Counted from the stretch's first letter, positions 30,558-48,142 are shown. The stretch: DNA of 64,000 bases from Candidatus Omnitrophota bacterium (GCA_022711395.1 JAKLFA010000001.1:3277-67276), one strand, 5' to 3'. Notes: generated by a model not told the origin, from the letters alone. A program made the numbers and translations.

Positions 30558-31639
30558 ACACCGTTTGGTATAAAAAAGTTTTTTTTGCCATATTCGCTGC
30601 GGCTGTTCTATGCGCGCTCGCGGAGATTTCTTTGCGGGTCATTTATTATCAAAAGAGCGATGCGGAACCGTTGTGCGCGGTAAAGGTTTATAAAAAGCTG
30701 CGGAAAAATCATCTTCAGCGCGCGGCTCAAAAAGAAGCCGGGGACATGGCCCTCAGCAAGGACCACTTGCGTTTTTTGTATTCCGACGCTGGAGAAGATC
30801 TTTTGGTGGAGCTCCAGGCAAGGTATGAGGGTGAATTTAAAAAATTGCGGGATGAGCTGGCCAGGGAGAATGTTCATTTGGTGATGCTGTATCTGCCGCA
30901 TTACGCTTATTGGAACACGCACATGCCGGACTCGCGGGATTTCTTTAAAAGCCTGGCAGAACGATCCGGCGTGGATTTTATCGACATGACCGATGATTTG
31001 CTTCACTACGGGCTTGAGGAGGTCACACTGCTCCCTGAAGATCATCATTTGTCGAGATTTGGAAATCAGATCATCGCCAAGCGGCTATCTGGATATCTTA
31101 AGGATTTTGAGTCGCACCGCAGCGCGTTGAAGTTTAGTGAGCGCCCGGTTCTGCTCGGAGATGAGCGGCCCGGATTTTATGATCTGAGCCCCTGGGATAA
31201 GCGGATGCCGTTTATTTTAAAAACCAATGCGCAGGGCTTGCGCATGGATTATGACCTGGCATTCCCGAAAACACAGCAGCGGGTGCTTGTCCTGGGGGAT
31301 TCTTATACTTTTGGTCCGTATCTTGAGAATGCGCACACGTTTCCGGCGATCCTGGACAGAAAGCTGGAACATGCTGAGGTCATCAACGCCGGCCATGGCG
31401 GTTACACGATCTCGCACGAATCTTCACTGTATTTTGAGCGGGCGCAGTATAGTGAGCCTGATATTGTGGTCCTTCAGGTTTTGGACAATGATCTTGAAGG
31501 GCTTGTGTATATTCATGAAAATCAATACGACCGTCATGGCAAAGCCCGGACGCCGACCACGGCAGAAAGGGCTTTTTTGGAGCAAGCTATTCGATTGGAC
31601 AATAAAAAAGCCCAACCCCTAACGGGGCCGGGCTTTTAA
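30554..31639 (+). CDS. membrane-anchored SGNH/GDSL-like hydrolase-fold protein, paralog 2 (4-nt overlap with paralog 1)
   Basis: Same architecture with RVLVLGDSYTFGPY...INAGHGGYTI. Roughly 70% aa identity to paralog 1 outside the identical tract. Confidence 0.5.
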   Translation: MNTVWYKKVFFAIFAAAVLCALAEISLRVIYYQKSDAEPLCAVKVYKKLRKNHLQRAAQKEAGDMALSKDHLRFLYSDAGEDLLVELQARYEGEFKKLRDELARENVHLVMLYLPHYAYWNTHMPDSRDFFKSLAERSGVDFIDMTDDLLHYGLEEVTLLPEDHHLSRFGNQIIAKRLSGYLKDFESHRSALKFSERPVLLGDERPGFYDLSPWDKRMPFILKTNAQGLRMDYDLAFPKTQQRVLVLGDSYTFGPYLENAHTFPAILDRKLEHAEVINAGHGGYTISHESSLYFERAQYSEPDIVVLQVLDNDLEGLVYIHENQYDRHGKARTPTTAERAFLEQAIRLDNKKAQPLTGPGF

Positions 31640-37364: not shown

Positions 37365-37512
37365 ATCATAGTATATTAGATGCGCGCTTTTCCAGTAAAT
37401 TCATTATGGGCTCATAATTTCAGGAAGCAATTTTTATTCCAAGTTGACAATTTTTGCCGGAACATGTATTGTTCTTAAGAAGACCGTGGAACGTAATCTA
37501 GGCAGGGCTGTT

Positions 37513-38427
37513 ATGGGTCACTCACACGAGCATCGGGTCATTGAAGAGGAGTTCAGGGAACTGTTTGACCTTGCTGATCAGGTAAGGGATTGTGTCGACG
37601 GGCTTTTAGAAACTTTTAATGAGAGAGAAACAAAACTTTTTGACCTGTCCGCCGCAAGGCGGATTTTTTTGTTTATCCTGACCAGGTCCATCAAAACGTA
37701 TTCGTCGATCGTGGTCCTGTGCCGGCGCGGATACGGCCAGGACGTGGCGACCCTGTTGCGCGGGCTTCTGGAGAATCTGGTCACTGCTGAATATATCCTT
37801 TATGATCCGAAGCATGCCAATCATTTGGCGGCCCGTTTTGTGGCCTACAAGTGGATCATTTTTAAGCGCGCGCTTCCGGAACAGGAGAGGCTGATCAAGG
37901 ACGCCCCCGAGGAACGTCAGAAGGAATTTGACCGCCGCAAGGCCGTTGTGATGGAACATGTTAATGATTTCAAGAAAAAATTCAAAGTCACATCGGATCG
38001 CGCGCTGATCACCTGGTCGGGCAAGACCGTGCGTGATATGGCCAAACATGTCAGCGCGGAGCTTTTGGCGGAATATGATGAAACGTTCCGTCAATGTTCT
38101 AAATTTTCCCATCCCAGTATTCTTGGAGACCAGGAATACATGGTCCGGGACAGCAAGAATCTTATCTTTTCTCCGCAACCTTCCGAGATCGGGGTCGCGA
38201 TCAACCTGAAACAGGCGATCAAATATTTTTTGGAATTTGCTGACCTGGTCAATGAGCAGTTTGATCTTAACAGAAAGGTTTTAATTGACCGTCTTCGTCA
38301 GCAGTGGTCCGGCCTTCAGGGAAATCCGCTCAAATCAGACGGGCTCGCCCTTGTCCAGTCGAAAGAAGCGATCCCTATTCGGGATTGCACCGTTGTGTTT
38401 AAGACCAATGGAAAAGTCCGTTCCTAG
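37513..38427 (+). CDS. hypothetical cytoplasmic protein (304 aa), no recognised domain
   Basis: Clean ORF beginning MGHSHEHRVIEE. Confidence 0.45.
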   Translation: MGHSHEHRVIEEEFRELFDLADQVRDCVDGLLETFNERETKLFDLSAARRIFLFILTRSIKTYSSIVVLCRRGYGQDVATLLRGLLENLVTAEYILYDPKHANHLAARFVAYKWIIFKRALPEQERLIKDAPEERQKEFDRRKAVVMEHVNDFKKKFKVTSDRALITWSGKTVRDMAKHVSAELLAEYDETFRQCSKFSHPSILGDQEYMVRDSKNLIFSPQPSEIGVAINLKQAIKYFLEFADLVNEQFDLNRKVLIDRLRQQWSGLQGNPLKSDGLALVQSKEAIPIRDCTVVFKTNGKVRS

Positions 38428-38442
38428 AATATTAATATTTTT

Positions 38443-38499
38443 AGTATGTCCATTATTGTCATATTATGTCCAAGTATGTCCATTTTTGTCATATTGACA
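38443..38499 (+). promoter_or_regulatory. direct repeats AGTATGTCCAtt(a/t)TTGTCATATT x2, overlapping a TTGACA -35 hexamer, upstream of the AraC-family gene
   Basis: 23-nt units at 38443-38465 and 38473-38495 with an extra ATGTCCA between them. TTGACA at 38494-38499, about 90 nt before the AraC start. Confidence 0.4.
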
Positions 38500-38585
38500 G
38501 CTTGGGGCGGCAGGAGCATGATAGTCCTTACTTTGGCTTTCGGATATCCGCAAGCATATAAGTGGTTTAAGAAAAACGTGTTGCC

Positions 38586-39455
38586 ATGCGAGATAATATT
38601 CTTCTTCACTATCTGACAGGCAACAAATCCTATCACCTTTTGCGGCAGCTCATCAACACGTTCTATGGATTTGACCTGGAGCTTTTGACCCTTGAAGGTG
38701 AGTTCATTGATCCGCCTTCAGAGAGAAGGTTCCGCTCTTTTTCCGGTCTCGAGGCCCCGACACAAACACCATCATCCCGCAGGTTTTTCGATCAGGATAT
38801 CCTGCAGCAGGTCCAGGATTCCCGTCATACGTTGGTCACGGAGTGCAAGGAGAGGGGCTATAAACAGCTCTTTGTCCCTGTTCTGCAGAAACGCGACGTT
38901 GTCGGATTTGTGTTCGTCAGCGAAGACGGCAATGTCCGCCTCACAGATGCCGAGGTCCAGATCACGATAGAATTTCTCGCGGATTATATCCGCATGCTGG
39001 TCAAGACGGACCTTGAATTCATCGAATTTTTCCAGAACAAGGACATGTCGCACCAGCAGTGCGTGATCCATGATGTGATCAATTACGTCCAGGAGCATTA
39101 TCAGGAAACCCACCTGACGCTTAGGGATATCGCCAGCTGGCGGGGGATCAGTTATCATTATCTCAGCTCGTTGTTTAAAAAAGAGATCAAGATGCCGTTC
39201 AAAACATACTTGACCCACGTGCGTCTTGAAAGGGCGGCTCATCTTTTGCAGAGCCGGCATGTGCCTGTGGGCCAGGTCGCCCGTGAATGCGGGTTCGAGG
39301 ACCCGGGCTATTTCAGCAAGGCCTTCAAGCGCCAAACTGGCCTTTCCCCTTTGGCCTACCGCGAACATCCGGTGCAAGTTAAGACGCATTCCGCAAAAGG
39401 CTTCCAATGCGCGCTTTCCAAATACGGGATCAGCTGTAAAAAGAACCGTCGGTAA
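38586..39455 (+). CDS. AraC/XylS-family transcriptional regulator
   Basis: C-terminal twin HTH (TLRDIASWRGISYHYLSSLFKKE...VGQVARECGFEDPGYFSKAFKRQTGLSPLAYRE). Confidence 0.8.
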   Translation: MRDNILLHYLTGNKSYHLLRQLINTFYGFDLELLTLEGEFIDPPSERRFRSFSGLEAPTQTPSSRRFFDQDILQQVQDSRHTLVTECKERGYKQLFVPVLQKRDVVGFVFVSEDGNVRLTDAEVQITIEFLADYIRMLVKTDLEFIEFFQNKDMSHQQCVIHDVINYVQEHYQETHLTLRDIASWRGISYHYLSSLFKKEIKMPFKTYLTHVRLERAAHLLQSRHVPVGQVARECGFEDPGYFSKAFKRQTGLSPLAYREHPVQVKTHSAKGFQCALSKYGISCKKNRR

Positions 39456-39646
39456 AAATTCCCATTCTTTCACAACTTCCTCCATTGCCAAAAACAGGAT
39501 CTTTGCTAAATTAGCGGATACTTGAGCGGGCGGATTCAGCGTCCGTTCTAAAAGAAAATCGGCAAGTTGATGTTTTTCCGTCGAGAAAAATTAAAAATGG
39601 ATCAGCCATGATTTTCGATACTCAAACCATAAAACGCGCGACAATC

Positions 39647-39848: not shown

Positions 39849-42101
39849 ATGAAAAAACTCACATCATTATTAATAATTTTTTTGATCCTGTCATTCGTGG
39901 CATACCCGATCCCCTCATTTGCTGAGGGAGTTGCTTTATCAGATGAGGAGATGGACCAGATCGCCGCCGGCGAATGGGTCTTTGCCAAGAATAACGGGCC
40001 GGTGAAAAAGAATTCACTGGAAGTCAACAGCGAGGCTCAGAGTGAACTTAAAGGGGTAAGCAACGCCAACACGGTCGATTCCGCTGTTGCCGGACAATAC
40101 AACGTTTCCAATGCGACGGAAGGCGTTGTGGATGTCAGCCAGGGCAACACGGCGAACGTGACGAACTCGGCGGTCACTCCTGACACCAGTTCATTCAAAG
40201 CTGTTGTCAATGAAACAACAGCGGTCGAGGAAACAACCAGCAATCAGCGCAATGACGTCGTGTCTTTCGGTGAGACCAAGACTAACGATAAGAGCGTGAC
40301 GTATAGTGACGTTGAGACCCTTGATGCCAGCTATTCCAAGACGGACACATTCCATTTGGAAGAGAGCGACAGCAAGACAAAAACATACGACATGGACCAG
40401 AAAGACACGTATTCATCGACAAAGGACAAATCTTCTTCTGAGGACAGTTCTCTGTCCGCTTCCTTTAGCGATGATAAGGCGTTTTCTGCCAGCTCCAGCA
40501 AGAATGTCGCCGCTGAGCACGCGGAAAGCGATACGTTCGATCTGAACAAATCCGATCAAGAAGCGTCAGAAAAGCACGCGACGGACAGCTCTTCATTCAG
40601 CGCGAACTTGGACGCAAGTGAAACAAAGTCCAAGAGCGATGATGAAAGCTTCTCCGCGGAGCACGCCTCAAGTGATACGTTCGATCTGAACAAGTCCGAT
40701 CAAGAGGCCTCCAGCAAGAGCGCGACACAGAATGAATCGTTCAGCGCCAGTTTGGATGCCAGCGAAACAAAGGCGAAGAGCGAAGATGAAAGTTTCGCTG
40801 CTGAGCATGCTTCAAGTGACACGTTCGATCTGAACAAATCTGATGAAGAGGCTTCATCATATTCAAGTTCGGATAATGAGCAGTCAGCCCTGTCTGTGAG
40901 CGCCAATGCCAGCAAGACAGAAGATGAAGCGATCAGCAAAGAAGCTTCTTTTACGGATAATTCCACGCAGGAGAACTCATCGACATCAACAGCATCTTCT
41001 GTTGTGGTTTCGGGTCCTGCTGAAGGCGAAACAGAGGTTTCTGGAGTGGCCGAAACCACTTTGGAGGCTTCAGCTGAAGACTCTGGAAGCGCTTCAGCGG
41101 CTACTTCTACAAACGAGTCAGCCAGCGCCGAGAGCCATGAGGGCTTGAGTGCGGCCGGCAGCTTCTCCAAGACCGAGAGCGAAACAAAGGACGCGTCCTT
41201 CGCGCTTGAAGGAAGCTCTTCGGATGTTGAATCCAAGGACAAGACATCAAGCGATAACGAATCGCTGGTGATCTCCTCCAATGAGCAGGCTTCGGGATCG
41301 GTCAGCAAGACAGATTCAGAGAGCTATGACAGCTCGAAGGCTCTGTCAGCCGGTGTTGATGCCTCTGCGTCAAAGACCTACGATTCTGAGAAGAGCGACA
41401 ACGAATCATTGGTGATCTCCTCCAATGAGCAGGCTTCGGGATCGGTCAGCAAGACAGATTCAGAGAGCTATGACAGCTCGAAGGCTCTGTCAGCCGGTGT
41501 TGATGCCTCTGCGTCAAAGACCTACGATTCCGCCAAGAGCGATAATGAATCATTGGTGATCTCTTCCGATGAACAGTCTTCGGGCTCGTTCAGCAAGGAT
41601 GAGGCGTCCAATGTTGATGCAACTTCGAATGTCGCGGCCAACTTGGATGCTTCGCATTCGGAGGCGGACAGCTACAGCTCAACCAAGAACAGCGATGAGA
41701 GCTACGTCGAAGCCAAGAGCTACGATGCGGCCAGCTCAAAGCTGATCGATAAAGATGAGAGCTCAGAAGGCTCGATCTCAGCAAGTAAGGATAAATCCGT
41801 TACTTACGATGATGTGAAGACCAAAGAGAAGACGGCGAGCGTGGATCATTCAGAAACTGACACGCACACGCTGGTCGACAACTCGACCTTTGCGTCAGAG
41901 ATCGAGAAGGATGAGACGAAGCAGGGGATCGTGAAGAATAAACTTCTGATCACCAATACATCGCAGAAGAATCTGACCGTCGTCAGCAACCTGAACGCCG
42001 TTGCATCCGCGACAGCGATCCAGGCCAACGTTGCCAATGCCAATACCGTGTCCGGGAACCTGACACAGGCCAACGTCGCGACGATCGTGAACGGGTTCTA
42101 A
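39849..42101 (+). CDS. secreted, extremely acidic Ser/Asp/Glu-rich repeat protein (candidate exported substrate A of the C39/outer-membrane-barrel cluster)
   Basis: Sec signal peptide MKKLTSLLIIFLILSFVAYPIPSFA. Then LSDEEMDQIAAG, a double-glycine-leader-like motif. About 650 aa of low-complexity S/D/E/T/K sequence with 47-48-aa tandem repeats. N/Q-rich C-terminal module ...TSQKNLTVVSNLNAVASATAIQANVANANTVSGNLTQANVATIVNGF. Confidence 0.7.
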   Translation: MKKLTSLLIIFLILSFVAYPIPSFAEGVALSDEEMDQIAAGEWVFAKNNGPVKKNSLEVNSEAQSELKGVSNANTVDSAVAGQYNVSNATEGVVDVSQGNTANVTNSAVTPDTSSFKAVVNETTAVEETTSNQRNDVVSFGETKTNDKSVTYSDVETLDASYSKTDTFHLEESDSKTKTYDMDQKDTYSSTKDKSSSEDSSLSASFSDDKAFSASSSKNVAAEHAESDTFDLNKSDQEASEKHATDSSSFSANLDASETKSKSDDESFSAEHASSDTFDLNKSDQEASSKSATQNESFSASLDASETKAKSEDESFAAEHASSDTFDLNKSDEEASSYSSSDNEQSALSVSANASKTEDEAISKEASFTDNSTQENSSTSTASSVVVSGPAEGETEVSGVAETTLEASAEDSGSASAATSTNESASAESHEGLSAAGSFSKTESETKDASFALEGSSSDVESKDKTSSDNESLVISSNEQASGSVSKTDSESYDSSKALSAGVDASASKTYDSEKSDNESLVISSNEQASGSVSKTDSESYDSSKALSAGVDASASKTYDSAKSDNESLVISSDEQSSGSFSKDEASNVDATSNVAANLDASHSEADSYSSTKNSDESYVEAKSYDAASSKLIDKDESSEGSISASKDKSVTYDDVKTKEKTASVDHSETDTHTLVDNSTFASEIEKDETKQGIVKNKLLITNTSQKNLTVVSNLNAVASATAIQANVANANTVSGNLTQANVATIVNGF
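40513..40860 (+). repeat. about 2.5 diverged tandem copies of a ~141-bp (47-aa) intragenic repeat
   Basis: AEHA(E/S)SDTFDLNKSD(Q/E)EAS...SFSA(N/S)LDASETK(S/A)KS(D/E)DESF(S/A) is repeated. Confidence 0.8.
41254..41600 (+). repeat. near-perfect 144-bp (48-aa) tandem repeats, 2 full copies plus a partial third
   Basis: Copies 41254-41397 and 41398-41541 differ at about 6 nt and share a perfectly identical core longer than 110 bp (SDNESLVISSNEQASGSVSKTDSESYDSSKALSAGVDASASKTYDS). Confidence 0.9.
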
Positions 42102-42189: not shown

Positions 42190-43179
42190 TTGCTGGCCGT
42201 GAAGAAGACCATGAACACATCTGTCAAGATCATAGCCTTTTCCATCCTTCTGCCATTTTCATGTTCAACGCTTTCGTACGCCGGAATGGCCAGGGTCATG
42301 AGCGATTATGAGCTTGACCAAGTGCACGCCGGCGGGTTGAACCTTGATTTTGACAAATTTCTTGGGTCCTTTTCGAGTGCCTCGGACACCGTTTCCAAAG
42401 GAGGGGTTACGGATACGGCGGCGGTCTTAAGCAGCCCGATCGTGATCGATAATAACGGAAAGAAAGTCCAGATCGTTGAGATCAAGGCGCCGAACACTCC
42501 GAAATTACCGAATATGCCTGTTGCGCCGACGGCCCCGACTACGGCCGGCAGCCTGCAGCAGGATCTTCCGGATGTGCCGGATGTGCCAGACGTGCCTGTC
42601 CCGGAAGTGAATGTGGCGTTAGCCACGGTTCCGGAGGCAACACGGTCCGCTTCACCGGATATTACGGTTGTGGATACCGCCTCGTCCGCGGTATTGGGCG
42701 CGACGTCAGATCTGGCGAATATCGTGCCGACGGTCCCGGTGACCGCGGCAAATGTTCCGGATGGGAGCGCCGCGGCAAATTCTGCGCCGTTGACCAACAG
42801 TGCGGCATCGGCGGTATCTTCTCCGACGGTCCCGACATCTCCGGTGGCTCCGACCGCACCGCAGGCTCCGGCGTCTCCGGTCATGCGGTTTGATGTGGTC
42901 GCAGGCCAGCAGAACGGAAAATTCGCGGTTGCGGTGAGCGATCAATCGGTTGGCGCAGCCGGAGCTCCGCTGTTTACGGCATCAAGCCCGGGATCCCAGA
43001 ACTTTTTGAATGTGACGGATACGGCTCAGCAGAATCTTGAGGCCCTGGTCAATGTGAACGCCGCCGGGAGCGTCGTGCCGGTCCAATTGAATTTGACGGT
43101 TTTGGTCAACTCAAACATTGAAAATTTGAATCTTTCGAATCAGTTGGATCTGAACAGTTTTTCAACATATCAATTTTGA
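42190..43179 (+). CDS. secreted Pro/Thr/Ala/Val-rich protein sharing N- and C-terminal motifs with substrate A (candidate substrate B)
   Basis: Signal peptide (KIIAFSILLPFSCSTLSYA), then MSDYELDQVHAGG, which matches the LSxxELxxIxGG double-glycine leader consensus. DVPDVPDVPV and a PT-rich linker. C-terminus TAQQNLEALVNVNAAGS...NLTVLVNSNIENLNLSNQLDLNSFSTYQF. The start is ambiguous (TTG 42190, GTG 42199 or ATG 42211). Confidence 0.6.
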   Translation: MLAVKKTMNTSVKIIAFSILLPFSCSTLSYAGMARVMSDYELDQVHAGGLNLDFDKFLGSFSSASDTVSKGGVTDTAAVLSSPIVIDNNGKKVQIVEIKAPNTPKLPNMPVAPTAPTTAGSLQQDLPDVPDVPDVPVPEVNVALATVPEATRSASPDITVVDTASSAVLGATSDLANIVPTVPVTAANVPDGSAAANSAPLTNSAASAVSSPTVPTSPVAPTAPQAPASPVMRFDVVAGQQNGKFAVAVSDQSVGAAGAPLFTASSPGSQNFLNVTDTAQQNLEALVNVNAAGSVVPVQLNLTVLVNSNIENLNLSNQLDLNSFSTYQF

Positions 43180-43229: not shown

Positions 43230-43925
43230 ATGAATATCCGCGCACTCTATACGTCTATTCTAACCGTTGCCTTTTTGATGTGCCACATTCCTATTGCTTC
43301 TGCCGCGACATTTAACGTCGCGGGGGTCCGGTTAACAAAAGACGTGAAACCGCTCCGGGAGATCAAACGAAGCAACGTTATTTCGCAGAGCCTGGATTTC
43401 AGCTGTGGGGCCGCAGGCCTTTCGACCCTCCTGAATTTTTATTTAAATGACGAAGTCAGCGAGCAGGAAATTATTGAAACGCTGTTAACGGTGGTCCCTA
43501 TCGAGAAAGTCCGCCAGCGCAAAGGGTTTTCATTGTTCGACCTAAAGACATTCGCTGAAAATCGCGGGTATAAGGTCACCGGTTATCAAATGGATTTTGA
43601 ATTTTTAAAGAACCTGGATGCGCCGGTCCTTGTTCCGATTCATTTCAGGAACTACAGCCATTTTGTCGTTGTGAGGGGGGTCGTAGGGGACAGGGTCTTC
43701 ATCGCGGATCCGGCGGCGGGCAATATGTCGATGAAGATCGATCAGTTCGAACGGGTCTGGGCCGGCGGGATCGGGCTGGTTGTTGAGCATCAATCTCCGG
43801 ACAGGGACCAGCGTTACGCCCTGCAGATCGAAGAGGACGACCTTCTTGTCGCGGACTATAAACATTTAAATAAGATCATGAACCAAATGATGGTGAGGAC
43901 AGCTGTATTTCCCTCAGAATATTAA
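43230..43925 (+). CDS. standalone secreted peptidase C39-family (bacteriocin-processing-type) cysteine peptidase
   Basis: Signal peptide MNIRALYTSILTVAFLMCHIPIASA. Catalytic-motif contexts are Q/Cys in ISQSLDFSCGAAGLSTLLNFY, His in NYSHFVVVRGV, and Asp in FIADPAAG. No ABC transporter domain is attached. Confidence 0.75.
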   Translation: MNIRALYTSILTVAFLMCHIPIASAATFNVAGVRLTKDVKPLREIKRSNVISQSLDFSCGAAGLSTLLNFYLNDEVSEQEIIETLLTVVPIEKVRQRKGFSLFDLKTFAENRGYKVTGYQMDFEFLKNLDAPVLVPIHFRNYSHFVVVRGVVGDRVFIADPAAGNMSMKIDQFERVWAGGIGLVVEHQSPDRDQRYALQIEEDDLLVADYKHLNKIMNQMMVRTAVFPSEY

Positions 43926-43958: not shown

Positions 43959-45350
43959 ATGCCAAAGAGCAGAACTTCAATAAGCCGGACAGCCTTTCTC
44001 ATTGTGGCGGTCATTGCCGGACTGGTCATCTTGAATCATCGGAACCAGCAGAAAATCATCCGGGACATGCGCGCTCAGATCAAAAAGGAATTGAAGATTG
44101 AACAGGCCCCGATCATTGAGCAGATGGTCAAAGACGAGGTCCGCAGGGTCTATGATGAAGAATTGGCGAAACACGCCACATCCGGGCTGCTGCTTTCAAA
44201 GGCCGGTCAGCCCGCTGACGAGGGTGAGACTTTAGACGAGGCGATCCATCGCATTGTATGGGAGGTTTACGCCGCAGAAGTTGAGGCCCGCAAGGCTTCC
44301 GGTGAAGTGGGCATCGCTTCCGACAGTGTTCTGGATGCGCATGTCGCCGGGGCGGGGATCGATCCGGACACGGCCATTCAAGGGGGATTCATCAAAAAGC
44401 CGGCGCTGGAGCCGGCATACCGTTTAGCCAAGGCTGCCGGAGACGCAGCGCCGGAATCATCGGATGAGATGGCCGTTGATGCAGGAGAAGGAGTGGAGCG
44501 GCCTGAATCGATCGAGCGGACCATGCAACAGAAGGGCAGCGTGCTGCTTCCCAAGGGCAAGCGCATTTTTGAGCCGAGTTTTACTTACGCTCATTTTTCC
44601 ACTAACCGTATCAATATTCAGGGCGTGACGATCCTGGATGTGTTTACCATCGGGCCTGTTTCCACGCAAAAGATACAGCGCGACATGTTCATTCAGACCT
44701 TCGGGTTCAAATATGGGCTGGCGGATAATTTGCAGGGAGACTTGCGTATTCCGTTCAGATATGAATTTGACCGGATCAGTAACAGTGATCAGACGGCTGA
44801 AGAGACCCGCAGCAAGGGCGGTTTGGGCGATATTGACGTGAGCGTTTCCCGGCAGATCGGATGGGAAGAGGGGTGGAAGCCGGATCTGATCGCGTCTTTG
44901 GGCGTGAAGTCAAATACCGGTAAACCGATCTATAACAACAGCATTGGTCTGGGGACAGGGCATTGGGCTGTGCGTGGGTCTCTGGTCGCGGCCAAATCCA
45001 GCGATCCGGCGGTCGTCTTCGGGAGTTTAAATTATATCCATAGTTTTAAACGCAGTTTCTCGAACTATGGGGAGATCGATCCCGGTGATACGATCGGTTA
45101 TAGTTTGGGCATGGCTCTTGCGTTAAGCTATCAGACGGCGATCAATTTTTCATTTGATCAGAGCTTCACACAAAAGCTCAAACGCGGCGGTGAAGCGGTG
45201 GTGGGTTCTTTTGTCAATTCCGCCAATTTTAAGACAGGCTTAAACTGGGCGTTGAGCGAGCGGGCTTCCGTGGATGTCAGCGCATCGGTCGGTTTGACGG
45301 AAGATTCCCCGGACTTTGCGGTTGAAGTCCGCGTTCCGGTGTATTTTTAA
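43959..45350 (+). CDS. outer-membrane beta-barrel protein with N-terminal coiled-coil and disordered linker (FapF-like architecture)
   Basis: N-terminal anchor/signal, a helical heptad region (IRDMRAQIKKELKIEQAPIIEQMVKDEVRRVYDEELAKH), an Ala/Pro/Glu-rich linker, then about 270 aa with alternating amphipathic beta-strand pattern ending in the OMP C-terminal signature ...VEVRVPVYF. Confidence 0.65.
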   Translation: MPKSRTSISRTAFLIVAVIAGLVILNHRNQQKIIRDMRAQIKKELKIEQAPIIEQMVKDEVRRVYDEELAKHATSGLLLSKAGQPADEGETLDEAIHRIVWEVYAAEVEARKASGEVGIASDSVLDAHVAGAGIDPDTAIQGGFIKKPALEPAYRLAKAAGDAAPESSDEMAVDAGEGVERPESIERTMQQKGSVLLPKGKRIFEPSFTYAHFSTNRINIQGVTILDVFTIGPVSTQKIQRDMFIQTFGFKYGLADNLQGDLRIPFRYEFDRISNSDQTAEETRSKGGLGDIDVSVSRQIGWEEGWKPDLIASLGVKSNTGKPIYNNSIGLGTGHWAVRGSLVAAKSSDPAVVFGSLNYIHSFKRSFSNYGEIDPGDTIGYSLGMALALSYQTAINFSFDQSFTQKLKRGGEAVVGSFVNSANFKTGLNWALSERASVDVSASVGLTEDSPDFAVEVRVPVYF

Positions 45351-45513
45351 GTTAAAAATATTATGATAAGCAGATATTTCCCGGCTCCTCTTCTTTGGGG
45401 GGCCGGGTTTTCTTTTAAGGATATTTTTTTGTGATTGCTTAAATATTAGTGATAAACTAAACAGCATAAAAGAAGGCCGGTTTTCAGGTCCGTGATCTTG
45501 CCTGGAGGATGCG

Positions 45514-45789
45514 ATGATTGCATTGATCAAAGGTGCGGCGATCGGGTTTTTGATGACATTTTCGTTTGTTTTTCTGCTTTTGCTGGCGGAGACGAAATTT
45601 TTATGGCGCTACATGGATCTTTCGGAGGGTCTGCGTGTTTGTTTCGGGTCCGTTCCAGCCGTTTTTTTAGGGGCGTTTCAATTCAGAGAAAAACGATTAT
45701 TTGGTATGGGGTTGCTTTGCGGGGTTGTGCTCGCGGGCGTGGCATGGTTTGGTTTTATCATGAGCATTTTAATATCGTTTGGGGAGTGA
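45514..45789 (+). CDS. small membrane protein (91 aa)
   Basis: Three hydrophobic segments. Preferred over the overlapping 45492 frame on composition. Confidence 0.35.
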   Translation: MIALIKGAAIGFLMTFSFVFLLLLAETKFLWRYMDLSEGLRVCFGSVPAVFLGAFQFREKRLFGMGLLCGVVLAGVAWFGFIMSILISFGE

Positions 45790-45811
45790 GGGGCCTTATA
45801 CGGGCTTGCTT

Positions 45812-48142
45812 ATGAGAAATACTGTCAGAAATTTTTTTGCGAGAATAAAAAACCGGATGATGTTCATTGCTTCGGCTTTTTTGATCGCTGCGTTTACTCT
45901 TGCCGCTGTTCATATCAAGGTCCTCTATTTCTTGCTATACAGGCCATATTCGGCTTATTTGTATCTTTCGAGTTTTTTTTATAAACAGGCGTTTTTAAAA
46001 ACGGGGCAGTTTCCGCTGTGGGACCCACTCATGATGTGCGGGATCAGTGACACATCGAACATGCCCTTTCCGCTTTCGCTTTTCAGGATCTTCACGCTTT
46101 CAGGGTTTTCGGCGATCTATTCGGTGTTCTTGACCGAACTTTTTTTCACGGTCATGGGAGCCGTGTTTTTTTATCTTTTGATGCGGGTTTATCGATGTTC
46201 CAGGCCGGTGGCCCTTTTGGGAACATTCCTCTATATATTTTGGCTTTATAAATGGAATGTGTCTGAAGGTTATCCTATGGCTTTGGCACCGGCGGTCTTT
46301 TATGCCGTCCAGAAATATGAATTGACCTTAAAATACAAATATATTTTTTTAGGGGCGGTGGCCGTCGGCGTGACCTGTCTCACGGGGATCATTCACGCTG
46401 TTGCCGTGATTTTTTTGTTCCATATGGTGGTGATCGCGTGCTTTTTGAAACAAAGGGTTTTTTGGAAATACTGTCTGGCCGGGTTTTTGTCTTGGGGCCT
46501 GGGATTTATACTGGCGTTGCCGTCCCTTGTTCCGCAGGTCAAGGATCTGCCGGAAAGTCAGCGGATCTTTTACGCCAAAGGCATGTTTGATTTCGCGAAT
46601 TTAGACTGGTCGAAATTCTGGCTAAGGTTCAATGAGGTCCTTCAGTTGTTCCCGTTCTCACCCGTATTCATGTTCTGTTTTGTTCTGGCCTTCCTTTCGA
46701 TCTTTTTCCTGAAAGACCAAAAGTTGAGGACGGTTTTTTATGTGTCCGTGGGTTTTTTTGTTTTTCATATTGTTTTGAGCTTCACGCAGACCGCATGGAA
46801 GGCGCTGCCTTTGATCGGAAAGTTCATTAACGCCGTTGACCTTTATCGCTCCGCGGCTTTGACCGGTTTTATTGTCCTTTTTTTCAGCACGTATCTGATC
46901 CACGTTCTCACGGAGGCCCCGTTCGTGGCGCGCCTTAGAAGAAAAATGCTCATTTTTCTGAGCGCGATCTTTTTAACGGTTTTTTTCGCCTTCCTTTATA
47001 TGGTCGCTCTCTCGGACGCGGAATTGATCATTGCCGCTGGTTCGGGGGTGATGGCCTTTGTGTTGGTGCATGTCTTTTTTCGTCATGCGTTCTTGAGGAG
47101 AGGCTTGAGCGTTCTTTTAGTAGGGATGGTTTTTTATTACAGCGCGGTGACTGACGGGATCTTCTTCTACCGGTATTGTTATAAGATGAATATTCAAAAG
47201 AAGGGGTTTCCGTTCTTTCAGGGGGTCATGGATGATTTTTATCCCAGGACCTATTTGGGGCTTTTTGCGGATGAGCCTTCGATGTCCAGGGGCCTGGCCT
47301 GGAAGATCATGGAGGAAAATGTTGCCAGGGAACATCTTCGCGGCGCGGACATCGGTGTTTATAATTTTTACGGGAAAGTGCGTTTTTACGCTGATGGATT
47401 GAACAGCATCTACGGGGTCGCCAATATCTATCCTGCGAGGTATTACGAATTTTTTTCCTGGATGGCCAACACTTCAGCAGTTGAGGCGCCGGACGCGGCT
47501 TATGCATTTGGTATCGATTCCGAGCTTGATCCCACGCTGATGAGCCTTGCCGGGGTTGGGTGGTTGGTGACGCCTAAAGATTTTGTCAGTGATGAGCTGC
47601 GGCTTGTTTGGAAAGGGGAAAAGTACGCGCTTTACAGGAATGACAGGGTTTTTCCTCGGGCGTTCACGGTCTTTCAGTTGAACGCGTTTGATGATAAAGC
47701 GGGGCTTGAAAATTATTTGAAAGAGGCCCCGGATGGGAGCTTAAGGGCCGCGGCAGCTGTTTTGAAAGAAGAGGTGAAAGGGTTGCCCGCTGAAGCCGTA
47801 AGCGGTTCCGGCAACGGCACGGCCGCGATCACAATATACGAACCAAACCAGGTCGTAGTCGAAGCGGATTTAAATGCCGACGGTCTGCTGGTCTTAACGG
47901 ACATGTTCCATCCGAACTGGCGCGCCACTGTTGATGGAGATCCGGTTGAGATCTATCCCGCGTATCATGTGTTCCGGATGGTCGCGTTGTCTAAGGGAAA
48001 ACATACGGTCCGGTTTTTTATCAAGGATGATGCCTTCACCCTGGCGCTCTGGGCTTCTTCCGGCGCGCTGATAGGAATGGTCTTGTTCTTTTTTTGGAGA
48101 AAGAGGAAAAGCGTCTCAGAGGCAGATCAAAAAGGGAAATGA
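45812..48142 (+). CDS. large polytopic membrane protein (YfhO-like; possible glycosyl/arabinosyl-transferase-type)
   Basis: About 15 TM helices over the first ~480 aa, then a soluble C-terminal domain and a final TM (WASSGALIGMVLFFFW). The start could be 45779 or 45812. Confidence 0.5.
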   Translation: MRNTVRNFFARIKNRMMFIASAFLIAAFTLAAVHIKVLYFLLYRPYSAYLYLSSFFYKQAFLKTGQFPLWDPLMMCGISDTSNMPFPLSLFRIFTLSGFSAIYSVFLTELFFTVMGAVFFYLLMRVYRCSRPVALLGTFLYIFWLYKWNVSEGYPMALAPAVFYAVQKYELTLKYKYIFLGAVAVGVTCLTGIIHAVAVIFLFHMVVIACFLKQRVFWKYCLAGFLSWGLGFILALPSLVPQVKDLPESQRIFYAKGMFDFANLDWSKFWLRFNEVLQLFPFSPVFMFCFVLAFLSIFFLKDQKLRTVFYVSVGFFVFHIVLSFTQTAWKALPLIGKFINAVDLYRSAALTGFIVLFFSTYLIHVLTEAPFVARLRRKMLIFLSAIFLTVFFAFLYMVALSDAELIIAAGSGVMAFVLVHVFFRHAFLRRGLSVLLVGMVFYYSAVTDGIFFYRYCYKMNIQKKGFPFFQGVMDDFYPRTYLGLFADEPSMSRGLAWKIMEENVAREHLRGADIGVYNFYGKVRFYADGLNSIYGVANIYPARYYEFFSWMANTSAVEAPDAAYAFGIDSELDPTLMSLAGVGWLVTPKDFVSDELRLVWKGEKYALYRNDRVFPRAFTVFQLNAFDDKAGLENYLKEAPDGSLRAAAAVLKEEVKGLPAEAVSGSGNGTAAITIYEPNQVVVEADLNADGLLVLTDMFHPNWRATVDGDPVEIYPAYHVFRMVALSKGKHTVRFFIKDDAFTLALWASSGALIGMVLFFFWRKRKSVSEADQKGK

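What the first reader, a model, noticed from the sequence alone, without database searches (positions are those of the whole stretch)
39849..42101. 750-aa hyper-acidic Ser-rich repeat protein
About 40% of residues are Ser/Asp/Glu and hydrophobics are nearly absent between the leader and the last ~60 aa. This composition is typical of Ca2+/metal-binding, biomineral-associated or S-layer-like extracellular matrix proteins. Together with the amyloid-like C-terminal module it could be a matrix, adhesin or cation-scavenging surface polymer.
Basis: seen in the sequence. Interest (0 to 1): 0.6.

Follow-up and report, generated by a model that had tools for sequence, protein, structure and literature searches.

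The report
Acidic stalk protein exported by Fap-type system
The 750-residue acidic, serine-rich protein is real and is the first cargo gene of a Fap-type outer-membrane export operon in an uncultured Omnitrophota bacterium; it belongs to an undescribed protein family whose export-signal cleavage site can be read from the sequence and whose long acidic middle has grown symmetrically about a central turn.

Summary
ORF 39849-42101(+) encodes 750 aa with Ser 21.9% and S+D+E 40.0%, against 17.6±3.3% in 30 neighbouring ORFs. Its pI is 4.2, and it has two 48-aa tandem arrays.

It is not an orphan. It heads a terminator-delimited four-gene operon: W750, a 329-aa second cargo, a periplasmic C39 peptidase (FapD/FilB-like, catalytic residues intact) and a FapF homologue (PDB 5o65, E=7e-28). 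This layout, preceded by DUF5677 and AraC genes, recurs in at least 10 loci, and every locus with a taxon label but one is Candidatus Omnitrophota.

The cargo matches no FapB/C/E or FilA model. It defines an unnamed family of about 117 representatives among 1.84 billion proteins. Members have a Sec signal peptide, then an LSDxEMDxIAAG motif that fits the C39 double-glycine leader spacing. Two homologous ~40-aa Asn/Gln/Ala/Val-rich units flank a variable core.

In short members AlphaFold predicts the core as one long β-hairpin. In four independent long lineages the turn motif (CxxC) stays within 7.5-12 residues of the exact midpoint, and 48-aa arrays mirror each other across it.

Best reading: a secreted, C39-processed surface-fibre subunit with a polyanionic two-armed stalk. 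Cation binding or biomineral roles are untested.

The parts
37444..38427 (+). DUF5677 gene, conserved upstream partner of the operon
   Evidence: Pfam DUF5677 3e-22; found upstream of the cargo genes in at least 10 related loci
38586..39455 (+). AraC/PocR-type transcription regulator, conserved upstream partner
   Evidence: Pfam HTH_18 1e-22, NCBIfam PocR 9e-21; conserved position in related loci
39485..39512 (+). sigma-70-like promoter candidate in the 393-nt intergenic region (weak evidence)
   Evidence: TTGCCA-16-TAAATT with TG, 9 of 12 matches; consensus match only
39849..42101 (+). W750: cargo A, 750-aa hyper-acidic Ser-rich secreted protein (the finding)
39849..39923 (+). Sec-type signal peptide, aa 1-25 (MKK + hydrophobic stretch + SFA|E)
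   Evidence: read from the sequence; position 3 upstream of the leader is Ala in 79 of 106 relatives; AlphaFold helix aa 2-17
39924..39971 (+). double-glycine-type leader, aa 26-41 (EGVALSDEEMDQIAAG), predicted C39 cleavage after G41
   Evidence: L30(-12), E34(-8), M35(-7), I38(-4), A40(-2), G41(-1) fit the published C39 recognition spacing; invariant in family alignments; AlphaFold helix aa 32-36
40011..40142 (+). N-terminal repeat unit, aa 55-98
   Evidence: unit HMM domain E=1e-13; HHalign N-unit vs C-unit probability 99%, E=2.7e-18
40507..40856 (+). array 1: 48-aa tandem repeat x2.4 in the N-arm of the core
   Evidence: TRF period 144, 79% matches; lies 46-189 aa before the centre
41013..41030 (+). 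central 'GPAEGE' (aa 389-394), only proline of the core, at the exact midpoint between the two units; putative turn
   Evidence: conserved in orthologues L006 and L009
41250..41597 (+). array 2: 48-aa tandem repeat x2.4 in the C-arm of the core
   Evidence: TRF period 144, 93% matches; lies 56-193 aa after the centre, mirroring array 1
41937..42077 (+). C-terminal repeat unit, aa 697-743; the protein ends ...IVNGF
   Evidence: unit HMM domain E=9e-14; 90% identical in L009 although the arrays are ~25% identical
42190..43179 (+). cargo B, 329-aa ORF (probable start at the ATG at 42211, 322 aa): signal peptide, MSDYELDQVHAGG leader, Pro/Ala/Thr-rich core, one repeat unit, ends ...STYQF
   Evidence: unit HMM E=2e-13; HHalign C-unit vs cargo-B unit probability 95%; conserved position in related loci
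43230..43925 (+). periplasmic C39 cysteine peptidase (FapD/FilB-like) with its own signal peptide
   Evidence: Pfam Peptidase_C39 3.7e-22; NCBIfam FilB 1.4e-37 and FapD 1.1e-35; Gln53, Cys59, His144 and Asp160 invariant, including in Aeromonas FapD
43959..45350 (+). FapF-type outer-membrane channel: N-terminal coiled-coil-like region plus barrel ending ...VPVYF
   Evidence: PDB 5o65 FapF E=7e-28 over aa 189-463; NCBIfam FapF 1.7e-39; Pfam Phenol_MetA_deg 2.8e-7; identical to NCBI HSA30525.1, 'transporter [Candidatus Omnitrophota bacterium]'
45380..45407 (+). intrinsic terminator closing the four-gene operon
   Evidence: 11-bp stem with 9 G-C pairs, followed by TTTTCTTTT

Best explanation
W750 is the major secreted cargo of a divergent Fap/Fil-type export operon in a Candidatus Omnitrophota bacterium. 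Proposed pathway:

(1) The Sec system exports the precursor and signal peptidase cuts after ...SFA25. This is inferred from the sequence.

(2) The new N-terminus is a 16-residue double-glycine-type leader, EGVALSDEEMDQIAAG. The periplasmic C39 peptidase encoded two genes downstream recognises it and cuts after G41. This is inferred from the exact fit to the published recognition spacing, its conservation in more than 100 relatives and in the second cargo, and the intact catalytic residues of the peptidase.

(3) The unfolded protein crosses the outer membrane through the FapF homologue. Homology is shown; transport is inferred.

(4) Outside the cell, the two homologous ~40-residue Asn/Gln/Ala/Val-rich units at the two ends dock by beta-stacking with units of neighbouring subunits and of cargo B, building or anchoring a fibre. 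This is inferred. The same unit occurs 12-18 times in tandem in paralogues, and it receives low confidence in monomer models.

(5) The ~560-residue polyanionic Ser/Asp/Glu core folds back on itself at the central GPAEGE, giving a two-armed antiparallel stalk. This stalk is an expanded version of the beta-hairpin predicted for short relatives, and it projects from the fibre as a negatively charged spike or brush up to ~100 nm long if fully extended. The mirror symmetry is shown; the conformation is inferred.

The biological role (adhesion, matrix, cation capture) is not determined.
For: Operon and machinery: four co-directional genes end at a strong terminator. The FapF homologue matches PDB 5o65 at E=7e-28 and NCBIfam FapF at 1.7e-39. 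The C39 peptidase matches FapD at 1e-35 and FilB at 1e-37, with Gln/Cys/His/Asp invariant. The genome is diderm (lipid A acyltransferase, Lnt).

Synteny: DUF5677 - AraC - cargo A (1-2 copies) - cargo B - C39 - FapF recurs in at least 10 independent loci.

Leader: in 106 unique relatives the counts are L 99, S/T 98, D 90, E/Q 95, L/M 106, D 77, I/V 103, A 105, G 104, then D/E 76 and W 64. The motif starts ~4 residues after an A-x-A-type site. The published determinants are Leu(-12)-X3-Glu(-8)-Leu(-7), a hydrophobic residue at -4 and a small pair at -2/-1, with the leader forming a helix (PMC6363468). AlphaFold predicts a helix at aa 32-36. Cargo B carries the same motif.

Repeat unit: HHalign gives N-unit vs C-unit 99% probability (E=2.7e-18) and C-unit vs cargo-B unit 95%. 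P0080 and P0083 contain 18 and 12 units.

Hairpin: AlphaFold on short relative P0003 (65-sequence alignment) predicts strands 116-180 and 184-248 at pLDDT 70-90, with the turn at CGKGC. The CxxC motif lies +8 to +11.5 from the midpoint in all 17 two-unit proteins that have one. In long forms its centre lies at +7.5 (L012, 826 aa), +7.5 (L022, 660 aa), +12 (L026, 1128 aa) and +10 (L028/L021, 822 aa), with a joint chance of ~5e-7. The last three lineages were found after the prediction was made. W750's GPAEGE sits exactly at its midpoint. The 48-aa arrays are mirrored about the centre in W750 (46-189 / 56-193), L009 (66-207+ / 66-193) and L026 (127-242 / 119-261).

Core pattern: alpha-helical periodicity is depleted (z about -3.5), apolar i,i+2 pairs are enriched (53 vs 38±5) and i,i+1 pairs depleted.

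Selection: pN is far below pS along the whole gene.
Against: There is no experimental data of any kind; the organism is uncultured. AlphaFold on W750 itself gives mean pLDDT 40 and no secondary structure in the core, which is equally compatible with intrinsic disorder. The beta hydrophobic-moment test is not significant for W750 (z +1.6 at 160 degrees), and the positive control (the P0003 hairpin) is not enriched either, so that test has little power. The leader ends in Ala-Gly rather than the canonical Gly-Gly, Gly-Ala or Gly-Ser. In cargo B the -1 position varies (G/S/Q), so the exact scissile bond is uncertain. A double-glycine leader placed behind a Sec signal peptide has no characterised precedent that I could find. 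Amyloid or beta-stacking behaviour of the units is inferred only from composition, repetition and analogy: the units show no detectable homology to Fap repeats and have no solved relative. Fold-search hits for the hairpin are weak (TM ≤ 0.17).
Confidence: 0.6

Rival explanations
1. Disordered polyanionic brush for cation binding. The core is an intrinsically disordered, highly charged spacer whose job is to bind Ca2+, Mg2+, Fe or mineral surfaces, or to hydrate the matrix. The terminal modules only anchor it. This concerns the core's conformation and role, and is compatible with export by the Fap-type operon.
For: Net charge -80, pI 4.2, Ser 26% and Asp+Glu 22% in the core. AlphaFold pLDDT is 25-45 with no secondary structure across the core. 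Core sequence and repeats turn over quickly while the composition is kept, as is typical of disordered regions.
Against: A free coil has no reason to keep its turn motif at the exact midpoint in four independent expansions, or to mirror 48-aa arrays across it. Short relatives have a confidently predicted hairpin in the homologous position. Apolar residues show i,i+2 enrichment and helical periodicity is depleted. No known Ca-binding motif or domain is found. pN/pS of ~0.3 in the core indicates sequence-level constraint.
Confidence: 0.22
2. Monomeric secreted or surface adhesin. The terminal modules are only targeting signals: the N-terminal leader for the C39 peptidase and the C-terminal module ending in Phe for recognition by the FapF channel. 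No polymer forms.
For: Both cargo classes end with a conserved unit plus an aromatic or aliphatic last residue. Secretion signals are expected to be shared by all cargo of one channel. Rouse et al. proposed that the processed FapE N-terminus is a FapF-targeting sequence (PMC5557850).
Against: The N-terminal unit is homologous to the C-terminal one, at 99% HHalign probability, which a pure C-terminal signal does not explain. Paralogues carry 12-18 internal copies of the unit, which is typical of a structural repeat and not of a signal.
Confidence: 0.12
3. Oligomeric beta-barrel tube. The long hairpins of several subunits associate side by side into a hollow beta-barrel stalk or nanotube, like the stems of aerolysin-type toxins or phage tail tubes, rather than a single two-stranded ribbon.
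For: All structural neighbours of the predicted hairpin in the PDB are hairpins that build oligomeric barrels: phi29 tail, lysenin, anthrax PA, aerolysin and CDTb. An isolated two-stranded ribbon 100 nm long would be unusually fragile (general knowledge).
Against: The matches are weak (TM ≤ 0.17; best E = 5e-4) and reflect only 'long hairpin' geometry. A charge of -77 in the core would strongly oppose lateral packing without counter-ions. No multimer model could be run.
Confidence: 0.05
4. Gram-positive-type serine-rich repeat glycoprotein adhesin (SRRP) or another known Ser-rich family, or a spurious ORF in low-complexity DNA.
For: High Ser content. A weak NCBIfam hit of relative P0006 to 'ser_rich_anae_1' (E=0.005, 14 bits against a cutoff of 650).
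Against: No LPXTG, no KxYKxGKxW-type signal, no SxSx dipeptide repeats, and no SecA2/SecY2/Asp/Gtf genes. The host is diderm. The frame is conserved in orthologues with pN far below pS, and the exact protein is encoded on five independent contigs.
Confidence: 0.01

Closest known systems
Pseudomonas Fap functional-amyloid system (fapABCDEF; FapF structure PDB 5o65; FapC fibril PDB 9nqd/9u4u)
   Same: A periplasmic C39 peptidase plus a FapF-type outer-membrane barrel encoded next to Sec-dependent, Asn/Gln-rich, repeat-containing secreted proteins. The major cargo has conserved repeats separated by variable linkers. A second cargo has a conserved N-terminus, a disordered linker and an N/Q-rich C-terminus, like FapE.
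   Different: The cargo repeats are not detectably homologous to Fap repeats (HHalign 0.1%; no NCBIfam FapB/C/E hit while controls hit). There are two units rather than three, and no FapA. The gene order is cargo-cargo-D-F. FapD and FapF score far below the equivalog cutoffs (123 vs 330 bits; 136 vs 700 bits). [quoted passage not shown] The phylum is Omnitrophota, which is not among the phyla listed for Fap operons in the 2025 survey (PMC12822426).
Acinetobacter Fil putative pilus system (FilA-F; NCBIfam NF050077-79)
   Same: The C39 peptidase is marginally closer to FilB (1.4e-37) than to FapD. FilC is a FapF-like barrel. FilA has a loosely similar M-D-D-x-x-L-x-x-A-x-G-Q motif just after its signal peptide.
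   Different: The barrel matches FapF much better than FilC (1.7e-39 vs 1.3e-14). No cargo matches FilA. No FilD/E/F equivalents are present.
Double-glycine leader peptides cleaved by C39 domains of PCAT/AMS ABC transporters (class II bacteriocins, RiPPs)
   Same: The leader has Leu(-12), Glu(-8), Leu/Met(-7), Ile/Val(-4) and a small pair at -2/-1, with a predicted short helix.
   Different: The leader lies behind a Sec signal peptide and would be cut in the periplasm by a stand-alone peptidase. No ABC transporter is involved. The pair is Ala-Gly, not Gly-Gly/Ala/Ser. The cargo is a 74-kDa protein, not a peptide.
Curli (CsgA/CsgB with the CsgG channel)
   Same: A dedicated outer-membrane export route for unfolded, Asn/Gln-rich imperfect-repeat subunits that polymerise outside the cell. 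A minor subunit shares the repeat with the major one (general knowledge; PMC12822426).
   Different: No Curlin_rpt, CsgG, CsgE or CsgF match. The channel family is unrelated.
Serine-rich repeat glycoprotein adhesins (SRRPs) of Gram-positive bacteria
   Same: A long Ser-rich, low-complexity, surface-exposed stalk with tandem repeats that vary in number.
   Different: No LPXTG, no accessory Sec system, no glycosyltransferases, a diderm host, and a different repeat type (48-aa units, not SxSx).
Long beta-hairpin stems of oligomeric barrels (aerolysin, lysenin, anthrax PA, phi29 tail knob)
   Same: A very long two-stranded antiparallel hairpin as the dominant structural element.
   Different: Only geometric resemblance (TM ≤ 0.17), with no sequence relationship. 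Arms here are 65 to ~485 residues, far longer than any solved stem. The oligomeric state is unknown.

Membership tests
Fap-type export machinery (FapD + FapF) | FapF-family outer-membrane barrel with a periplasmic N-terminal extension | tested here: met
   PDB 5o65 FapF E=7e-28 over aa 189-463; NCBIfam FapF 1.7e-39 (136 bits, below the equivalog cutoff of 700, so a distant family member and not an orthologue); Pfam Phenol_MetA_deg
Fap-type export machinery (FapD + FapF) | Stand-alone periplasmic C39 peptidase with a catalytic Cys, encoded next to the barrel | tested here: met
   NCBIfam FapD 1.1e-35 and FilB 1.4e-37; N-terminal signal peptide; Gln53/Cys59/His144/Asp160 invariant; the gene is immediately upstream of the barrel gene
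Fap functional amyloid (complete system) | FapC/FapB subunits with three imperfect repeats of the GNxGxNxxAGxxNQQxN type | tested here: not met
   No NCBIfam FapC/FapB hit at E ≤ 0.1, while Aeromonas FapC hits at 1e-50; HHalign of the unit profile vs 8 genuine Fap repeats gives probability 0.1%; there are two units, not three
Fap functional amyloid (complete system) | FapE and FapA accessory proteins | tested here: not met
   Cargo B resembles FapE in architecture only. There is no NCBIfam FapE hit (the Aeromonas FapE control hits at 2e-12), and HHalign probability is below 1%. No FapA-like ORF is present in the operon
Fap functional amyloid (complete system) | Cargo forms amyloid (cross-beta) fibrils | not testable with these tools
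   Needs ThT/Congo red, EM, or fibre diffraction of the expressed protein
Acinetobacter Fil system | FilA subunit plus FilB (C39), FilC (barrel) and FilD/E/F | tested here: not met
   FilB-like 1.4e-37 and FilC-like 1.3e-14 are present, but no cargo hits FilA (the FilA control hits at 2e-97) and there are no FilD-F equivalents
C39 double-glycine leader substrates | Leu(-12)-X3-Glu(-8)-Leu(-7), hydrophobic residue at -4, small residues at -2/-1, helical leader | tested here: met
   L30, E34, M35, I38, A40, G41; family counts L 99, E/Q 95, L/M 106, I/V 103, A 105, G 104 of 106; determinants from PMC6363468; helix at aa 32-36. The pair is Ala-Gly, not Gly-Gly
C39 double-glycine leader substrates | Cleavage after the -1 residue by the cognate C39 peptidase | not testable with these tools
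   Needs N-terminal sequencing or mass spectrometry of the secreted protein, or an in vitro assay
Serine-rich repeat glycoprotein adhesins (SRRP) | LPXTG anchor, extended KxYKxGKxW signal peptide, SxSx repeats, SecA2/SecY2/Asp/Gtf locus | tested here: not met
   None of these appears in the sequence or in the 64-kb window. The only SecA is the canonical one (SEC-C motif) at 1395-4382, next to a release-factor gene
Curli | Curlin repeats and the CsgG/E/F secretion genes | tested here: not met
   No Pfam or NCBIfam match on cargo or neighbours
Known Ca2+-binding, biomineral or S-layer proteins | RTX/EF-hand/calsequestrin-type motifs, SLH or S-layer domains, or a magnetosome gene context | tested here: not met
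   No domain hit and no such genes in the window. Binding itself is not testable here
New Omnitrophota two-unit cargo family (defined here) | Signal peptide + LSDxEMDxIAAG[DE]W leader + N-unit + core centred on a turn motif + C-unit ending G[LF]; encoded upstream of cargo B, C39 and FapF | tested here: met
   Family profile E from 1e-123 to 1e-3 for 117 representatives. W750 aligns at all invariant columns, and its units hit the HMM at 1e-13. Synteny is confirmed and the midpoint rule holds

The most novel reading that the evidence does not exclude
A new class of bacterial surface fibre. Subunits exported by a Fap-type channel consist of two terminal amyloid-like docking units joined by a single giant antiparallel beta-hairpin stalk. 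The stalk has 65 to ~485 residues per arm (~20-160 nm if extended) and lengthens during evolution by matched 48-residue insertions in both arms. This would also be the first FapD/FapF-type system in which the peptidase's substrate and cleavage site can be read directly: a Sec signal peptide followed in tandem by a double-glycine leader. It would point to the same logic for FapE and FilA in Proteobacteria.
Probability: 0.3. Interest if true: 0.82.

Novelty: new variant of a known kind. Interest (0 to 1): 0.66.

Why it matters
There are three reasons.

1. In the Pseudomonas Fap system the peptidase FapD is essential for secretion, but its substrate is still unknown. As of the 2025 review it is only 'thought to' process FapE and FapF. 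Here both cargo proteins carry a leader with the exact spacing that C39 proteases recognise, placed right after the Sec signal. That gives a concrete, cheaply testable model for what FapD-type peptidases cut and why. It also suggests where to look in FapE and FilA.

2. The cargo is an undescribed family, with no Pfam or NCBIfam model and every member labelled hypothetical. Its design rule is unusual and quantifiable: cores ranging from ~130 to ~1000 residues stay centred on one turn motif, and tandem arrays are mirrored across it. This implies length-coupled evolution of two arms of one structure.

3. It provides a first candidate surface-fibre or adhesion apparatus for Omnitrophota, a widespread uncultured phylum whose cell-surface biology is essentially unknown. 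It is also a natural example of a tunable-length polyanionic spacer on a self-assembling scaffold.

Tried and rejected
- Full-length homology search with W750 returned 8000 low-complexity candidates and nothing significant. It was replaced by termini-only and profile searches. W750's exact sequence is absent from that protein collection, which explains why it never hit itself.
- Homology of the repeat unit to FapB/FapC repeats: HHalign probability 0.1%. Rejected.
- Homology of cargo B to FapE: HHalign aligns the suggestive motifs but probability is below 1%. Not supported.
- Leader-like motifs in Proteobacterial cargo: present in Aeromonas FapE and Acinetobacter FilA, but not found in the Cupriavidus locus with the same pattern. 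Kept only as a lead.
- AlphaFold on W750 gave mean pLDDT 40, unusable for fold search.
- Foldseek of the P0003 model against the PDB gave only weak, geometry-level hits. The AlphaFold-database library was unavailable.
- The beta hydrophobic-moment test was inconclusive, and the positive control did not score either.
- The PDB profile search with the terminal modules gave a best E of 0.31, which is noise.
- Rfam and tRNA scans found nothing near the operon.
- SRRP/accessory-Sec, curli, RTX/EF-hand, S-layer and magnetosome readings were rejected for lack of any defining feature.
- The YfhO-like gene downstream was considered as a possible glycosylation partner. It was rejected as part of the system because a terminator lies in between and it is not conserved in other loci.


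Full report
**1. The observation**

ORF 39849..42101 (+) is present as described: an ATG start and 750 codons. It has Ser 21.9%, Asp 8.9% and Glu 9.2%, so S+D+E is 40.0%. Its pI is 4.21 and its net charge is -80, with a single Arg and a single Trp.

This is a large deviation from the genome it sits in. Thirty other large ORFs of the window have Ser 6.1±1.1%, S+D+E 17.6±3.3% (maximum 22.9%) and hydrophobic residues 36.8±5.0%, against 18.8% here. All six Ser codons are used in near-background proportions, so the bias is selected at the protein level.

Tandem Repeats Finder reports two arrays of 144 nt (48 aa) with 2.4 copies each, at 40507-40856 and 41250-41597. One part of the description is overstated. 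The core (aa 126-690) still has 14.9% ILVFMWY and never runs more than 27 residues without one.

The frame is a real gene:
- The identical protein is encoded on five independent contigs.
- Orthologues keep the frame over saturated synonymous divergence (pS ~0.75). pN is 0.11-0.14 in the termini and 0.24 in the core.

**2. Source and context**

The barrel protein encoded downstream is identical to NCBI HSA30525.1, 'transporter [Candidatus Omnitrophota bacterium]'. The closest genomic loci are Omnitrophota MAGs, plus one binned as 'Planctomycetales'.

The window is ordinary chromosomal DNA of a diderm. It carries lipid A acyltransferase, Lnt, housekeeping SecA, a release-factor gene, FtsH, enolase and H+-PPase.

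W750 is the first of four co-directional genes:

| Coordinates | Product | Evidence |
|---|---|---|
| 39849-42101 | W750 (cargo A) | |
| 42190-43179 | 329-aa secreted protein (cargo B) | |
| 43230-43925 | C39 peptidase: Pfam 3.7e-22; NCBIfam FilB 1.4e-37, FapD 1.1e-35 | |
| 43959-45350 | Outer-membrane barrel: PDB FapF 5o65 E=7e-28; NCBIfam FapF 1.7e-39 | |

A strong intrinsic terminator follows at 45380-45407. The peptidase has its own signal peptide. It keeps Gln53, Cys59, His144 and Asp160 in all orthologues and in Aeromonas FapD.

Upstream lie DUF5677 and an AraC/PocR regulator. The whole arrangement (DUF5677, AraC, one or two cargo A genes, cargo B, C39, FapF-like) recurs in at least ten independent loci.

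**3. What the Fap literature says**

- In Pseudomonas, FapD is a periplasmic C39 protease whose catalytic Cys is required for FapC secretion. [quoted passage not shown] The FapE N-terminus is processed, and FapE has a conserved N-terminus, a disordered linker and an N/Q-rich C-terminus (PMC5557850).
- Co-localised fapD/fapF homologues were noted in five further phyla, without description of their cargo (PMC6173800).
- A December 2025 review lists Fap operons in Pseudomonadota, Desulfobacterota, Nitrospirota and Bacillota. It describes them as almost invariably having three imperfect repeats, and still says FapD is 'thought to' process FapE and FapF (PMC12822426).
- I found no paper linking Omnitrophota to such a system.

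**4. The cargo is a new family**

W750 and cargo B hit no Pfam or NCBIfam model. Positive controls hit theirs: Aeromonas FapC 1e-50, FapE 2e-12 and Acinetobacter FilA 2e-97.

A search with only the non-repetitive termini found eight relatives. A terminal-module profile then found 79 clusters. An unindexed HMMER search of 1.84 billion representatives found 117 at E ≤ 1e-3, of which 44 are at E ≤ 1e-30. All are unnamed or 'hypothetical', and the few labelled ones are Omnitrophica/Omnitrophota. No solved structure is related.

The architecture has four parts:
1. A signal peptide.
2. The motif L-[ST]-D-x-[EQ]-[LM]-D-x-[IV]-x-A-G-[DE]-W.
3. An N-terminal unit of the form 'N.L.L.D.SQ..IQAVSNANAVDSAVAVQTNIA', followed by a variable core.
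4. A homologous C-terminal unit ending ...VVNG[LF].

HHalign relates the units to each other: N-unit vs C-unit is 99% probability (E=2.7e-18), and C-unit vs the single unit at the end of cargo B is 95% (E=1.8e-8). The unit is not detectably related to genuine Fap repeats, with probability 0.1% against eight repeats from PDB FapC and Aeromonas FapB/C.

Two relatives, P0080 (1283 aa) and P0083 (1000 aa), consist of 18 and 12 tandem copies of the unit behind the same leader. So the unit is a structural repeat and not merely a signal. In the window it occurs only in W750 (aa 55-98 and 697-743) and in cargo B.

**5. The leader**

Counts in 106 unique family sequences:

| Position | -12 | -11 | -10 | -8 | -7 | -6 | -4 | -2 | -1 | +1 | +2 |
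|---|---|---|---|---|---|---|---|---|---|---|---|
| Residue | L | S/T | D | E/Q | L/M | D | I/V | A | G | D/E | W |
| Count | 99 | 98 | 90 | 95 | 106 | 77 | 103 | 105 | 104 | 76 | 64 |

The motif starts about four residues after an A-x-A-type signal-peptidase site.

Published work on C39 double-glycine proteases gives the recognition sequence Leu(-12)-X3-Glu(-8)-Leu(-7). The leader forms a helix that inserts residues -4, -7 and -12 into a hydrophobic groove, and it ends in a small residue pair (PMC6363468). With cleavage after 'AG', the Omnitrophota motif matches every one of these positions.

AlphaFold predicts a short helix at aa 32-36. Cargo B carries the same motif, L[ST]DxELDx[IV]xA[GSQ]GL.

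I therefore infer two-step maturation. Signal peptidase cuts after A25, then the periplasmic C39 peptidase removes the 16-residue propeptide E26-G41. This is inference. The terminal pair is Ala-Gly rather than Gly-Gly, and the exact bond in cargo B is uncertain.

Aeromonas FapE ('LADGELAHLRGR') and Acinetobacter FilA ('MDDAALSAATGQ') show the same spacing after their signal peptides. I could not generalise this, so it remains a lead.

**6. The acidic core is an expansion of a hairpin**

Most family members are 300-340 aa with a core of ~130 residues. For one of them, P0003, AlphaFold with a 65-sequence alignment predicts one long antiparallel beta-hairpin. The strands are 116-180 and 184-248 at pLDDT 70-90, with the turn at 'CGKGC'. 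The conserved terminal units stay at pLDDT ~40, as expected if they pair between molecules.

For W750 itself AlphaFold is uninformative: mean pLDDT 40 and no secondary structure in the core. I therefore tested symmetry instead.

In all 17 two-unit proteins with a CxxC or CxxxC in the core, that motif lies +8 to +11.5 residues from the exact midpoint between the two units. The long forms obey the same rule:

| Locus | Length (aa) | Turn motif | Offset of its centre from the midpoint |
|---|---|---|---|
| L012 | 826 | CPGC | +7.5 |
| L022 | 660 | CTDC | +7.5 |
| L026 | 1128 | CEDC | +12 |
| L028/L021 | 822 | CEDC/CADC | +10 |

The last three lineages were retrieved after the rule had been formulated. 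The joint chance is about 5e-7 for all four lineages and about 2e-5 for the three found afterwards.

The W750 clade has lost the cysteines. W750's 'GPAEGE', which contains the only proline of the core, sits exactly at its midpoint.

The 48-aa arrays are mirrored about the centre:

| Protein | N-arm array (aa before centre) | C-arm array (aa after centre) |
|---|---|---|
| W750 | 46-189 | 56-193 |
| L009 (partial) | 66-207+ | 66-193 |
| L026 | 127-242 | 119-261 |

This holds although the repeat sequences of these lineages are unrelated. W750 and L009 arrays are 25-27% identical while their C-units are 90% identical.

L006 is the one exception. Its N-arm is about 46 residues short, exactly where a single frameshift interrupts the gene. 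This suggests a collapsed repeat in that assembly.

In the cores, alpha-helical periodicity is depleted (z about -3.5). Apolar i,i+2 pairs are enriched and i,i+1 pairs depleted, in W750 (53 vs 38±5; 30 vs 39±4) and in L009. L012 shares only the i,i+1 depletion (34 vs 48.5±5) and has a strong 180° hydrophobic moment instead (z = +5). The hydrophobic-moment test itself is weak, and its positive control did not score.

I conclude that the two halves of the core are length-coupled. The simplest explanation is that they pair antiparallel as an elongated version of the family's hairpin. If fully extended, W750's arms (~298 residues each) would span about 100 nm. That figure is an extrapolation.

Structural neighbours of the hairpin model in the PDB are only weak matches to hairpins that form oligomeric barrel stems (TM ≤ 0.17). 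I treat this as an analogy that motivates one rival.

**7. Mechanism, with status of each step**

Shown:
- The composition and repeats.
- The operon.
- Homology of the channel and the peptidase, and the intact catalytic residues.
- The family, the conserved leader and unit homology.
- The mirror symmetry.
- Purifying selection.

Inferred:
- Sec export.
- C39 cleavage after G41.
- Passage through the FapF-like channel.
- Extracellular assembly through the terminal units, with cargo B sharing the unit as a possible nucleator or anchor, by analogy with FapB, FapE and CsgB.
- A two-armed polyanionic stalk projecting from the assembly.

Unknown:
- The biological role. Adhesion, matrix formation and cation capture all remain possible.
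- Whether the units form true amyloid.

**8. Comparison and novelty**

The system works like Fap, Fil and curli: dedicated outer-membrane export of unfolded, Asn/Gln-rich repeat subunits. Its channel and peptidase are distant members of the FapF and FapD/FilB families.

It fails the membership tests for a Fap operon proper:
- No FapB/C/E homology.
- Two units rather than three.
- No FapA.
- Machinery scores far below the equivalog cutoffs.

It fails those for Fil too. SRRP, curli, Ca-binding, S-layer and magnetosome readings lack every defining feature.

I classify it as a new variant of a known kind: a Fap-type export system with a new cargo family. Two features do not appear in the literature I could search. 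One is a Sec signal and a double-glycine leader in tandem. The other is a symmetrically expandable hairpin core.

**9. Verdict**

Its interpretation as an extracellular matrix or surface polymer is partly supported by context, while the cation and biomineral ideas remain untested.

- Interest: 0.66.
- Confidence in the overall explanation: 0.6.

Confidence differs by step. It is highest for 'cargo of a FapD/FapF-type export operon'. It is moderate for C39 cleavage at G41 and for arm pairing. It is lower for amyloid-like polymerisation.

Noticed in passing
window 42190-43179 (+): The second cargo protein (329-aa ORF, probable start 42211) has its own signal peptide, the leader MSDYELDQVHAGG, a Pro/Ala/Thr-rich core with a 9-nt tandem repeat (42568-42596, 'PDVPDVPDVP') and one copy of the repeat unit. 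Its length varies from 218 to 616 aa between loci. Its architecture resembles FapE, but homology is not supported.
   Followed up: partly
window 37444-39455 (+): A DUF5677 protein and an AraC/PocR-type regulator sit immediately upstream of the cargo genes in essentially every related locus. They are probably dedicated regulators. DUF5677 has no known function.
   Followed up: partly
P0080 (1283 aa) and P0083 (1000 aa), from the representative search: These are paralogous proteins made of 18 and 12 tandem copies of the same ~40-aa unit behind the same leader motif, each with a Cys-rich segment. They are the multi-unit extreme of the family. Their genomic context was not examined.
   Followed up: no
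W750 aa 210-353 and 455-592; L009 28-1707; L026 251-3637: The tandem period is 48 residues in both arms in three lineages whose repeat sequences are unrelated. Why the quantum is 48 is unexplained.
   Followed up: partly
L006 7998-10359: The closest orthologue is split by one +1 frameshift inside the N-arm repeat array, and that arm is ~46 aa shorter than the C-arm. This is probably a collapsed repeat or assembly error rather than a pseudogene.
   Followed up: partly
L003, L004, L005 (JGI 3300019216/10/47) and L021 (Ga0179942): These are short contigs of 2.9-3.9 kb that carry only a long cargo A gene, plus the start of cargo B in L003-L005. They may be metatranscriptome assemblies, which would mean the gene is highly expressed. 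The sample type could not be checked with these tools.
   Followed up: no
L013 5949-6596 (Aeromonas FapE); L014 4476-5342 (A. baumannii FilA): Both have an L/M-x3-E/A-L-x2-hydrophobic-x-G motif shortly after their signal peptides, with the same spacing as the Omnitrophota leader. This may be a clue to the unknown FapD/FilB substrate in Proteobacteria.
   Followed up: partly
window 45779-48142 (+): A 787-aa polytopic membrane protein has a weak YfhO match (E=9e-5, C-terminal part only). It lies just downstream but beyond the terminator, and it is absent from this position in other loci.
   Followed up: partly
P0119, P0138, P0153 (~400 aa) and P0122 (422 aa): These more distant relatives share the leader ('APVALEDSAMDQVTAG...') and terminal units but have different cores. 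P0122 has several internal 'NIGDSAVALQANLAAIA' repeats. The superfamily may extend beyond Omnitrophota. Their taxonomy is unknown.
   Followed up: no
P0079 (296 aa): A protein annotated with C39 peptidase Pfam domains gave a weak match (E=3e-5) to the cargo terminal-module profile. This may be a fusion or a chance match.
   Followed up: no
window 1-64000: GC skew is positive in every 2-kb bin and nearly all large ORFs are on the + strand, so the whole window probably lies on one replichore's leading strand. Two adjacent GDSL/AlgX-like genes (29487-31639) suggest polysaccharide O-acetylation.
   Followed up: no
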